A stretch of DNA of 5,684 nt, taken from IMG/VR virus record IMGVR_UViG_2698536552_000009. One strand, 5' to 3'. This document shows positions 1 to 778 of the stretch, one piece after another (within the stretch, counting starts at the first letter, position 1; every line of letters begins with the position of its first letter). Made by a program: the position numbers and the translations under genes. Source of the DNA: a virus (lineage: Duplodnaviria > Heunggongvirae > Uroviricota > Caudoviricetes). The notes beneath the pieces are model-generated. The model did not search any database. It was not told where the DNA came from and saw only the letters and a list, made by a program, of their open reading frames with translations.

Positions 1-94
1 GATGCCAAACTGTGATCGGAGATGGATGCCAAATCATGATCGATTCGAATGCCAAACTGCGATCGATTCAGATGCCATTTTGCACACTGAGTAC
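1..94. repeat. Four tandem copies (three good, one degenerate) of a ~23-bp unit, consensus approx GATGCCAAAYYRYGATCGATTC; copies start near 1, 25, 48 and 71; the first three each contain GATC
   Basis: Direct reading: the ATGCCAAA core recurs at 2-9, 26-33 and 49-56, with a degenerate ATGCCATTTT at 72-81; GATC at 14-17, 37-40 and 60-63. The 23-bp period is not a multiple of 3 and the array straddles the stop codon at 34-36, so it is not a protein-level repeat. Confidence 0.55.
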
Positions 95-648
95 TTTTTA
101 AGCTTTGAAGCTACTCGACCAGCGTTACTATTAGCATTGGTGACGTTGGTTTTTTCAGCTTCTGTTAAGTCTGAATAGTCCAGCTTCCAAGCCTTATTAC
201 ATTTAATCTGAGCATCGAGAATATCATTTCTGATAGCTGGAGCGTAACCGGATACATCGCTAATATTCATTAACTCTTTGCACGATAGCATAGGCGCGTT
301 ATTGCGTTCAGTGGTCACGTTACCTGCATTCTTCTTACTGGTCACACCACCGTCATTTGTGGTAGCCGTTTTGCCAGTGGCTGCTGAAATATCAGTTTGA
401 CCTACGATTGCTTTAAAGTTAATTTCCTGAAAAGTTAGCTGGATACGAAGACCGTTAGAGATAGTAACATCTTTAGAGGCTTTAAAGTTGGTAATAATGG
501 AATCGTCAATTTTAATTCCATCTTTACAGATAACAGAAATAATCTGCTTCTGGTCACGCCAGTTTTCCAGAGTGTCAATGAAGTTTTCTACTAATTGACC
601 CTGACGAGTTAATAATAAGCTTCCTTCATAATTGCATGTTCTGTGTAG
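34..648 (-). CDS. Start-less reading frame (about 205 codons) downstream of the tape measure gene; probable C-terminal portion of a split gene, possibly a distal tail or baseplate-type protein by position only
   Basis: Translated codon by codon on the minus strand: no stop from the TGA at 651-649 down to the TGA at 36-34, and no ATG, GTG or TTG in frame before the GTG at 345-343, which has no usable SD. The ORF track calls only 34..345 from that GTG. Coding-like composition continues upstream to 648. Confidence 0.4.
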
Positions 649-778
649 TCACCTGCATAGGGCTATCAAATTCCATGTTTTCAGTTGCTGATAAGGTTAA
701 GAAGGCATCTACATTGTCTCTTAAGTGGAAATAGATGCCATCTTTGCCACTGTAACGAAGCTGATTAGTGTAAATCAT
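626..778 (-). CDS. Short ORF (50 aa, [50 protein letters not shown]) with strong RBS; probable N-terminal portion of the split gene continuing at 34-648
   Basis: ATG at 778-776 preceded by AAGGAG (790-785) with 6-nt spacing; ends at TGA 628-626. The downstream open frame (34-648) overlaps its last 23 nt in a different frame. Confidence 0.45.

What the first reader, a model, noticed from the sequence alone, without database searches (positions are those of the whole stretch)
34..778. Split gene directly downstream of the tape measure gene: RBS-driven 50-codon ORF followed by about 205 start-less codons in another frame
The ORF at 778-626 has a textbook RBS and ATG but stops after 50 codons. 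A different frame is open from 648 to 34 with no ATG, GTG or TTG until the GTG at 345, which has no usable SD. The two frames overlap by 23 nt (626-648, minus-strand sequence GTGACTACACAGAACATGCAATTATGAAGG). Joined, they would give about 255 aa, a size typical of the protein encoded immediately after the tape measure gene in many tailed phages (distal tail or baseplate component; positional inference only). Going from frame A to frame B needs a +1 (or -2) shift. The take-off codon UUA is followed by UGA and then three tandem UUA codons in the new frame about 10 nt downstream, loosely reminiscent of stop-adjacent recoding or short bypass, but no SD-like stimulator or slippery run is present. 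The alternatives are a 1-bp indel in the assembly, a genuine pseudogene, or real recoding.
Basis: partly seen in the sequence, partly recalled or inferred. Interest (0 to 1): 0.6.

Follow-up and report, generated by a model that had tools for sequence, protein, structure and literature searches.

The report
Broken tail gene in Shigella island
The "split gene" is a dead copy of a phage tail tube-initiator gene in a Shigella sonnei chromosomal island, broken by a 74-base internal deletion and an insertion sequence at its 3' end; this is ordinary gene decay, not ribosomal recoding or an assembly error.

Summary
On the minus strand an AAGGAG-driven ATG (778) opens a 50-codon ORF that stops at 628-626, and the +1 frame is then open and start-less down to 34.

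The cause is not a 1-nt indel or recoding. Every intact homologue is one 254-265-codon ORF. These come from Felixounavirus phages and from about 300 E. coli chromosomal islands. All carry 74 extra nucleotides (24 codons + 2 nt) exactly at window 631|630. The lost residues 50-74 include 13 invariant positions of the Dit-like/tube-initiator fold (Bas63 gp18, PDB 9NDY).

A second lesion hits the same gene. Window 1-84 is the terminus of an IS21-family element, inserted with a CTCAGTG target duplication. It replaces the invariant C-terminal NPNKKY.

The window is 100% identical to Shigella sonnei assemblies. The exact 50-aa product is recorded on at least 1000 contigs, so the lesion is fixed in a lineage and is not an assembly artefact. 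Other S. sonnei strains add an IS1 inside the remnant, and S. flexneri broke its copy independently.

Verdict: an ordinary pseudogene, of low interest.

More interesting is the host element. It is a roughly 11-kb integrative island carrying only a tape measure gene and a tube-initiator gene related to virulent Ounavirinae phages. It may be an undescribed satellite or defence element.

The parts
85..778 (-). Pseudogene of the tail tube initiator (TI; Dit-like, PF21821), the homologue of the intact 262-aa island gene and of the 265-aa Felixounavirus gene
   Evidence: The window product aligns to PDB 9NDY (Bas63 gp18) in two stretches, residues 7-52 and 75-257, with E = 4.4e-87.
785..790 (-). Shine-Dalgarno AAGGAG, 6 nt upstream of ATG 778-776; conserved in intact island copies
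   Evidence: Sequence read; alignment A2.
626..778 (-). 5' fragment: 50 codons plus a TGA that is created by the frameshift. It is annotated in S. sonnei as a separate hypothetical protein (FORC11_1046).
630..631 (-). Deletion junction. 74 nt (CAGGGC...GTTGGC; residues [25 protein letters not shown] plus 2 nt) are present here in every intact homologue and absent from the window. There is no microhomology at the junction.
   Evidence: Residues 50-74 hold 13 invariant columns.
85..647 (-). 3' fragment in the +1 frame (residues 75-256 of the intact protein). It has no start codon before GTG 345. The 34-345 ORF is annotated in S. sonnei as FORC11_1045.
85..91 (-). CTCAGTG, one copy of the 7-8-bp target-site duplication of the IS21-family insertion. 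The other copy, followed by the last 21 nt of the gene (AACCCTAACAAAAAATACTAA), lies on the far side of the IS in L005.
1..84 (-). Terminal inverted repeat region of an IS21-family element (5'-TGCAAAATGGCATC..., with reiterated TTTGGCAT motifs). It is followed in the source genome by istA/istB. It replaces the invariant C-terminal NPNKKY* of the TI with [16 protein letters not shown].
   Evidence: 84/84 identity to the IS end in L004; IS21-like ISSso4 family istA/istB annotation.
181..189 (-). TGGAAGCTG. This is the site where other S. sonnei strains (L007-L014, including CP110404.1) carry an additional IS1 insertion with a 9-bp duplication. It is not inserted in this window.
935..3106 (-). 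Tape measure protein gene directly upstream. It is an apparently intact ORF, partly N-masked in the window.
796..933 (-). Intergenic TMP-TI spacer with two strong hairpins (933-859 and 839-796), conserved among island copies
   Evidence: z = -3.65, 0 of 200 shuffles.

Best explanation
The region is a pseudogene of the tail tube-initiator (TI) gene. It lies in the Shigella sonnei copy of a small integrative chromosomal island that carries a tape measure gene and a TI gene related to Ounavirinae (Felix O1-like) myophages. Two independent lesions inactivate it. The first is a 74-nt internal deletion at window 631|630. It removes 24 codons of the conserved tube-like domain and shifts the frame by +1, so translation from the intact RBS/ATG ends after 50 codons at a junction-created UGA. 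The remaining roughly 185 homologous codons are stranded without a start codon. The second is an IS21-family insertion at window 84/85 that cuts off the last six, invariant, codons. At most a 50-residue N-terminal peptide is made (inferred) and no functional TI. This fits the general IS-driven genome decay of Shigella.
For: Intact comparators are single ORFs spanning the junction. Felixounavirus HK3 has a 265-aa ORF. The E. coli islands in ECONIH2, Z1323HEC0422 and O177:H21 have 262-aa ORFs. Of the 120 best of 1119 homologues, nearly all are 254-264 aa with PF21821.

All four aligned comparators carry exactly 74 extra nt at the same point. The 40 best-listed E. coli genome hits show the 275-versus-201-bp gap, and no complete E. 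coli genome holds the deletion junction.

The deleted residues 50-74 include 13 invariant columns, and the IS removes invariant N257/P258/K260. The Pfam match shrinks from profile positions 2-118 (73.4 bits, intact) to 65-118 (34.3 bits).

The IS21-family insertion is clean, with a CTCAGTG duplication and the rest of the gene on the far side.

The lesion is not an artefact. The window is 100% identical to L005. The exact 50-aa product is listed in 2281 blocks of the collection, on at least 1000 contigs, and is named as an S. sonnei protein. L012 is CP110404.1, S. sonnei S17BD05200.

Decay continues in the lineage: there is an IS1 in the remnant in L007-L014, the serine recombinase is split by an IS3-family element, and S. 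flexneri disrupted its copy independently with two IS elements. IS-driven pseudogenisation in Shigella is established (PMC7373316, listed; only its title and abstract were seen).
Against: The RBS, the ATG and both reading frames are still free of further stops or substitutions, so the deletion is evolutionarily recent, or the fragments could in principle still be expressed. The neighbouring TMP gene remains an intact ORF. No expression or proteomic data were available. I could not enumerate all S. sonnei genomes to show that the deletion is universal in the species.
Confidence: 0.95

Rival explanations
1. Programmed recoding. This would be either a +1 frameshift at CAA-UUA-UGA, or a short ribosomal hop from the UUA before the UGA to one of the three UUA codons 13-19 nt downstream. 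Either would yield a shortened but functional tube initiator.
For: The take-off-like context is really there: a UUA followed by UGA, with UUA UUA UUA in the +1 frame shortly downstream. The RBS and both frames are undamaged.
Against: The context is a by-product of a 74-nt deletion. The UUA triplet run is the native LLL conserved in all homologues. No homologue has the break. No SD-like stimulator or slippery run is present in the sequence, and RNA folding is at background (z = -0.05). Any recoded product would lack 13 invariant core residues and the invariant C-terminus lost to the IS. Other strains tolerate an IS1 inside the downstream frame.
Confidence: 0.02
2. Assembly or sequencing error: the frame break is an artefact of the assembly from which the window was taken.
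For: Single-genome frame breaks are often artefacts. Some of the related assemblies (L008, L013, L014) show many other split genes.
Against: The difference is 74 nt, not a homopolymer slip. The identical truncated ORF occurs in 2281 blocks of the collection, on at least 1000 contigs from NCBI, ENA and Logan assemblies, including complete chromosomes of 4.8 Mb. Ten fetched loci are 99.9-100% identical across the junction.
Confidence: 0.01
3. Two functional remnants. The 50-aa N-terminal peptide, and/or the 103-aa GTG-345 ORF, has been retained as an independent small protein, for example as a decoy that interferes with tail assembly of incoming Ounavirinae phages.
For: The RBS and ATG are intact, and the 50-aa peptide is identical in at least 1000 contigs. 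The N-terminal 50 residues are near-identical to the phage TI.
Against: S. sonnei is a recent clonal lineage, so identity across assemblies does not show selection (established knowledge). The downstream fragment is hit by IS1 in several strains. GTG 345 has no convincing SD. A 50-residue piece of a beta-sandwich domain is unlikely to fold (inference).
Confidence: 0.02

Closest known systems
Tail tube initiator of Felixounavirus (Bas63 gp18, PDB 9NDY; Pfam PF21821 Dit_like)
   Same: It is the same protein family. The window fragments align to 9NDY residues 7-52 and 75-257 (E = 4.4e-87). It occupies the same position directly after the tape measure gene. In the intact ECONIH2 island copy, residues 6-160 are identical to the phage HK3 protein.
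   Different: The window copy lacks residues 53-74 (Bas63 numbering), is frameshifted and has lost its C-terminus to an IS. The island versions carry a divergent roughly 100-residue C-terminal extension and sit in a bacterial chromosome rather than a virulent phage genome. In the island the gene is separated from the TMP gene by a 156-nt spacer with its own RBS, whereas in the phage the two genes overlap.
IS-driven and deletion-driven pseudogenisation in Shigella (Hawkey et al. 2020, PMC7373316)
   Same: There is an IS21-family insertion with a target duplication, plus IS1 and IS3-family insertions in the same island. S. flexneri shows an independent IS disruption of the same gene.
   Different: Nothing differs in kind. 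The only specific detail is the 74-nt internal deletion without microhomology.
Programmed +1 frameshifting (prfB/RF2 type) and translational bypassing (T4 gene 60 type)
   Same: There is a stop codon right after a potential take-off codon, and matching codons lie downstream in the +1 frame.
   Different: There is no SD stimulator, no CUU-U-type slippery site, no hairpin and no conservation of the break. The joined product would lack conserved core residues.
Phage satellites and phage-parasitic islands (P4, PICI, PLE). This comparison is for the host island, not the split gene.
   Same: It is a small (about 11 kb) integrative element with its own recombinase and a replication-initiator-like gene. 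It has no capsid, terminase, sheath or tube genes. It carries homologues of structural genes of a specific phage group.
   Different: None of its accessory genes matches satellite, PADLOC, PHROG or NCBIfam models. A cargo consisting of just TMP plus tube initiator is not a feature of the known satellite families (my own knowledge). No induction, packaging or interference data exist.

Membership tests
Tail tube initiator / Dit-like (PF21821; Bas63 gp18) | Significant sequence match to the family profile and to a solved member | tested here: met
   PF21821 scores 34.3 bits against a cut-off of 24.2. PDB 9NDY matches at E = 4.4e-87. phrog_3721 matches at 2e-99.
Tail tube initiator / Dit-like (PF21821; Bas63 gp18) | Gene located immediately downstream of the tape measure gene | tested here: met
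   The TMP gene is at 935-3106 (-) and the TI start is at 778 (-). The order is the same in phage HK3 and in the islands.
Tail tube initiator / Dit-like (PF21821; Bas63 gp18) | One uninterrupted ORF covering the whole tube-like domain and the conserved C-terminus, that is, a functional member | tested here: not met
   There is a 74-nt deletion with a frameshift. Only profile positions 65-118 are matched, against 2-118 in intact copies. The C-terminal NPNKKY is lost to IS21.
Tail tube initiator / Dit-like (PF21821; Bas63 gp18) | Forms the hexameric ring between the hub and the tail tube | not testable with these tools
   This is known for Bas63 gp18 (PMC12609058). The AF2 model of an intact island homologue was too poor to use (pLDDT 38).
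Programmed +1 ribosomal frameshift | Shift-prone codon context with an upstream SD-like stimulator or a slippery run | tested here: not met
   The sequence ACAGAACAUGCAAUUAUGAAGG contains neither.
Programmed +1 ribosomal frameshift | Frame break conserved among homologues | tested here: not met
   No complete E. coli genome holds the junction. The 120 best homologues are single ORFs. All four aligned comparators are intact.
Translational bypassing (T4 gene 60 type) | Matched take-off and landing codons with a stop after take-off | tested here: met
   UUA-UGA is followed by UUA UUA UUA in the +1 frame. These codons are the ancestral LLL, and the take-off context was created by the deletion.
Translational bypassing (T4 gene 60 type) | Stimulatory RNA structure at the take-off site, and a product that is colinear with homologues | tested here: not met
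   Folding z-score is -0.05. The product would lack at least 25 conserved residues.
IS21-family insertion sequence (window 1-84) | Termini 5'-TG...CA-3' with reiterated repeats, adjacent istA + istB genes, and a short target-site duplication | tested here: met
   The element runs TGCAAAATGGCATC... to ...GGAATACGCA with a CTCAGTG duplication. Reiterated TTTGGCAT motifs are visible in the sequence. istA (rve/Mu-transpos_C_2) and istB (IstB_IS21) lie next door. The end shows 84/84 identity to the end next to the annotated 'IS21-like element ISSso4 family' genes in L004.
Phage satellite (host island) | Integrative element with its own recombinase that lacks a full virion gene set | tested here: met
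   The element is about 11 kb, lies between the split yecE halves or beside wrbA, and has a large serine recombinase. Tail genes are limited to TMP and TI, and no capsid or terminase gene is present.
Phage satellite (host island) | Helper-dependent induction, replication and packaging | not testable with these tools
   Only sequence links to Ounavirinae exist. The IMG/VR hits appear to be prophage calls from isolate genomes, judging by their identifiers and lengths.

The most novel reading that the evidence does not exclude
The split gene is a fossil, but the element that carries it may be an undescribed class of phage-parasitic or anti-phage island specialised on virulent Ounavirinae myophages. 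It is an approximately 11-kb integrative island with a serine recombinase, a Rep-like protein, Dam and several orphan ORFs. Its only recognisable cargo is its own tape measure protein and a chimeric tube initiator. The tube domain of that initiator is amino-acid-identical to the Felixounavirus protein, while the baseplate-contacting C-terminal extension is island-specific. Such a pair could be built into, or could poison, the helper's tail. Variants in Citrobacter track Mooglevirus instead. On this reading, S. sonnei and S. flexneri simply lost the function.
Probability: 0.35. Interest if true: 0.7.

Novelty: already known. Interest (0 to 1): 0.15.

Why it matters
For the finding itself, this removes a false recoding candidate and shows how it arose. 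A deletion junction can create a stop next to repeated codons and so mimic bypass or frameshift signals. It also corrects the annotation: S. sonnei records list the two pieces as separate hypothetical proteins (FORC11_1046 and FORC11_1045), but they are fragments of one tube-initiator pseudogene. The wider value is the pointer to the intact island family, found in about 5% of complete E. coli genomes and also in Citrobacter, Salmonella, E. albertii and E. fergusonii. This family keeps a TMP and tube-initiator pair related to strictly virulent phages, which is a testable lead for satellite or defence biology against Felix O1-like phages.

Tried and rejected
1. An exact search for the deletion junction in GTDB species-representative genomes found nothing. 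Megablast of a 44-nt junction probe against complete E. coli genomes also found nothing. The source was identified instead by exact-protein look-up.
2. A protein-based scan of species representatives returned only one locus, S. flexneri, so it gave no taxonomic survey. Source names were used for that instead.
3. The AlphaFold2 model of an intact homologue (P0001, 26-sequence alignment) was poor (pLDDT 38, pTM 0.28). No fold search was run, and the deleted segment was mapped by sequence alignment to 9NDY and by conservation.
4. I tested whether the island's 235-aa and 67-aa genes upstream of the TMP gene are the Felix-type tail assembly chaperones. There is no similarity, no tblastn hit in phages, and no Pfam, PHROG, PADLOC or NCBIfam hit. 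PGAP's 'transposase' label for the 236-aa protein in some genomes is not supported by any profile.
5. Literature searches for a described satellite or island with a TMP linked to Felix O1 or Ounavirinae found none. The library does not cover subscription journals.
6. The IMG/VR hits to the island-specific protein appear to be prophage-type calls from isolate genomes, judging by their identifiers and lengths, not virome particles. They therefore say nothing about packaging.
7. I rejected the 1-nt indel idea (the gap is 74 nt), the recoding idea and the assembly-error idea, for the reasons given under the rival explanations.

Full report
**1. The observation**

AAGGAG (790-785) lies 6 nt before ATG 778. 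Fifty sense codons follow (MIYTNQ...TTQNMQL), ending at TGA 628-626. The +1 frame is stop-free from 647 to the TGA at 36-34, and its first possible start is GTG 345. Small corrections are needed: the +1 frame opens at 647, directly after TGA 650-648, so the overlap is 22 nt. A start-less open stretch of about 205 codons is not a chance event, and both pieces hit the same protein family (below).

**2. What the gene is**

The conceptual fusion matches Pfam PF21821 (Dit-like phage tail protein) and phrog_3721. The upstream ORF, 935-3106, is a tape measure protein. BLASTN against phage genomes finds 93% identity over window 319-754 to the gene that follows the tape measure gene in about 260 Felixounavirus genomes.

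The phage protein (HK3, 265 aa) is nearly identical to PDB 9NDY chain A, 'Tube initiator protein (gp018)' of phage Bas63 (E = 1.3e-162). In the Bas63 cryo-EM paper this protein forms the hexamer that adapts the C3 hub to the C6 tail tube. It has a tube-protein-like fold plus a C-terminal extension of about 100 residues that runs through the baseplate (PMC12609058).

**3. Why it is split**

In every BLAST hit the phage segment is 510 bp against 436 bp in the window. Pairwise and four-way alignments and an explicit extraction show exactly 74 nt between window 631 and 630 in four comparators. These are phage HK3 and three E. coli chromosomal homologues. The segment is CAGGGCAAAC[CT]GTCACAGATAATGTGCAAAGAGCACCCAGAACAAT[CT]ACTATTAG[CT]GGTGTCGTTGTAGTTGGC. 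None of it is present in the window.

Seventy-four nucleotides is 24 codons plus 2 nt. This explains the +1 frame change and the UGA that appears three codons after the junction. There is no microhomology at the junction.

The window product aligns to 9NDY as two blocks, residues 7-52 and 75-257. In an alignment of 26 diverse intact homologues, the missing residues 50-74 ([25 protein letters not shown]) contain 13 invariant columns. The Pfam match drops from profile positions 2-118 (73.4 bits) in an intact copy to 65-118 (34.3 bits) here.

**4. A second lesion**

Homology to the intact genes stops at window 85. The window reads ...KKYSV|[16 protein letters not shown], where intact copies read ...KKYSVNPNKKY*.

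Window 1-84 is 100% identical to the end of an element annotated as an 'IS21-like element ISSso4 family' (istA/istB) in E. coli O177:H21. It begins 5'-TGCAAAATGGCATC and carries the reiterated TTTGGCAT motifs typical of IS21-family ends.

In the source genome (L005) the IS is followed by istA and istB. On its far side comes CTCAGTG plus the missing last 21 nt of the gene. This is therefore a simple insertion with a 7-8-bp target duplication. It removes N257, P258 and K260, which are invariant in the family and shared with the phage proteins.

**5. Where the window comes from, and whether the lesion is real**

No complete E. coli genome contains the deletion junction. About 300 of 5426 do contain the intact gene: 301 genomes match, and the 40 best listed all show two pieces spanning 275 bp instead of 201.

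An exact look-up of the 50-aa product finds it in 2281 blocks of the assembly collection. It is recorded on at least 1000 contigs under the names 'Uncharacterised protein [Shigella sonnei]' and FORC11_1046. The 103-aa GTG-345 ORF is FORC11_1045 of S. sonnei.

The window is 100% identical to GCA_000815825.1 (L005) over all unmasked parts. L012 is CP110404.1, named in PMC11125565 as the S. sonnei S17BD05200 chromosome. The deletion is thus a fixed feature of a heavily sequenced lineage, not an assembly error.

Decay continues within that lineage. Eight of the ten fetched loci carry an IS1 inside the remnant at window 181-189, with a 9-bp duplication. The island's serine recombinase is split by an IS3-family element. 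In S. flexneri SFBU1023 the homologous gene is interrupted by two other IS elements. This matches the known IS-driven pseudogenisation of Shigella (PMC7373316; only its title and abstract were seen).

**6. Recoding?**

The UUA-UGA context is produced by the deletion junction. The three UUA codons are the ancestral LLL of the conserved GSLLLT motif. There is no SD-like element or slippery run. The 121-nt region around the junction folds no better than shuffled sequence (z = -0.05).

None of the homologues examined shares the frame break. Any shifted or hopped product would still lack 13 invariant core residues and the invariant C-terminus. I put recoding at about 2%.

**7. Mechanistic conclusion**

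Shown: one ancestral gene, a 74-nt deletion, the frameshift, the IS21-family insertion, and fixation in S. sonnei. Inferred: ribosomes starting at ATG 778 make at most a 50-residue peptide; the downstream 185 homologous codons are untranslated; and no functional tube initiator is made.

**8. The surrounding element**

This part lies outside the finding and was only partly followed up. Intact copies sit in an element of about 11 kb that splits yecE (DUF72) or lies beside wrbA. The gene set is as follows:
- a large serine recombinase;
- the tube initiator;
- a 723-726-aa tape measure protein;
- 67-aa and 235-aa orphan proteins;
- several small ORFs, and in some copies an HNH endonuclease;
- a replication-initiator-like HTH protein;
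- a Dam methylase.

There are no capsid, terminase, sheath or tube genes.

Island TI residues 6-160 are 100% identical in amino acid sequence to the TI of the virulent phage HK3. The C-terminal extension has diverged except for the terminal SVNPNKK. The island TMP is 31% identical overall to the phage TMP, but it keeps the N-terminal 45 residues, a central block and the C-terminal LLSSS[FY]PE motif.

Homologues occur in chromosomes of E. coli, E. albertii, E. fergusonii, Citrobacter and Salmonella. A Citrobacter variant is closest to Mooglevirus phages rather than Felixounavirus.

The accessory genes match nothing in PADLOC, PHROGs, Pfam or NCBIfam. I found no paper describing the element. A satellite or tail-assembly-interference role against Ounavirinae is a reasonable but untested hypothesis.

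**9. Verdict**

The intact island family is the lead worth pursuing.

Noticed in passing
whole window; intact relatives L002 4390-15757, L003 4390-15540, L004: The window is part of an integrative island of about 11 kb. It carries a serine recombinase, a Rep-like HTH protein, Dam and orphan ORFs, and its only recognisable cargo is a tape measure protein plus a tube initiator related to virulent Ounavirinae phages. It is present in about 300 of 5426 complete E. coli genomes, at yecE or beside wrbA, and also in Citrobacter, Salmonella, E. albertii and E. fergusonii. I found no description in the searched literature. It is a possible satellite or defence element.
   Followed up: partly
window 319-754 versus L001 4001-4510; L003 5980-6768: There is a sharp mosaic boundary. 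The tube-like domain of the island TI is 91-98% nt and, in ECONIH2, 100% aa identical to Felixounavirus. The first 8 codons, the C-terminal extension of about 100 residues and the flanking DNA are not. This suggests recent recombination between a chromosomal island and strictly lytic phages.
   Followed up: partly
window 796-933 (minus strand): The 156-nt spacer between the TMP stop and the TI start folds into two strong hairpins: a 9-bp core stem with a 35-nt loop at 933-859, and a 13-bp stem at 839-796. The folding z-score is -3.65, and the sequence is nearly identical in the other island copies. In the phages the two genes overlap with no spacer. The function is unknown; processing, termination or regulation are possibilities.
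   Followed up: partly
window 1-84: This is the IS21-family terminus, with the motif TTTGGCAT (once ATGGCAT) reiterated four to five times at spacings of roughly 20-25 nt. These are presumably the multiple transposase-binding repeats of IS21-type ends.
   Followed up: partly
window 181-189; L007-L014 about 10600-11366: Other S. sonnei strains, including CP110404.1, carry an extra IS1 inside the pseudogene remnant, with the 9-bp duplication TGGAAGCTG. This is a presence/absence polymorphism that could serve as a lineage marker.
   Followed up: partly
L022 8407-10459 (S. flexneri SFBU1023, CP182556.1): This is an independent inactivation of the homologous tube-initiator gene. An IS3-family element is inserted after residue ~75, and a second IS truncates the C-terminus.
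   Followed up: partly
window 3445-4155 (minus strand; L005 6624-7334): The 236-aa protein two genes upstream of the TMP gene (a 68-aa ORF lies between them) is labelled 'transposase' by PGAP in some E. coli genomes. It has no Pfam, PHROG, NCBIfam or PADLOC match and no tblastn hit in phages, so the label looks unsupported. The 337-aa GTG ORF listed for the window (3205-4218) does not correspond to the called genes: the gene callers place a 68-aa gene and the 236-aa gene in that stretch.
   Followed up: partly
window 2822-3059, 3356-3605, 3785-4049, 5012-5373: Four runs of N (1115 bases in all) mask parts of the TMP gene and of upstream genes. The unmasked sequence can be read in L005.
   Followed up: yes
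L005 13357-16336: The island's serine recombinase in S. sonnei is split by an IS3-family insertion into a Resolvase-domain N-terminal piece and a Recombinase-domain C-terminal piece. The island is therefore probably immobile there.
   Followed up: no
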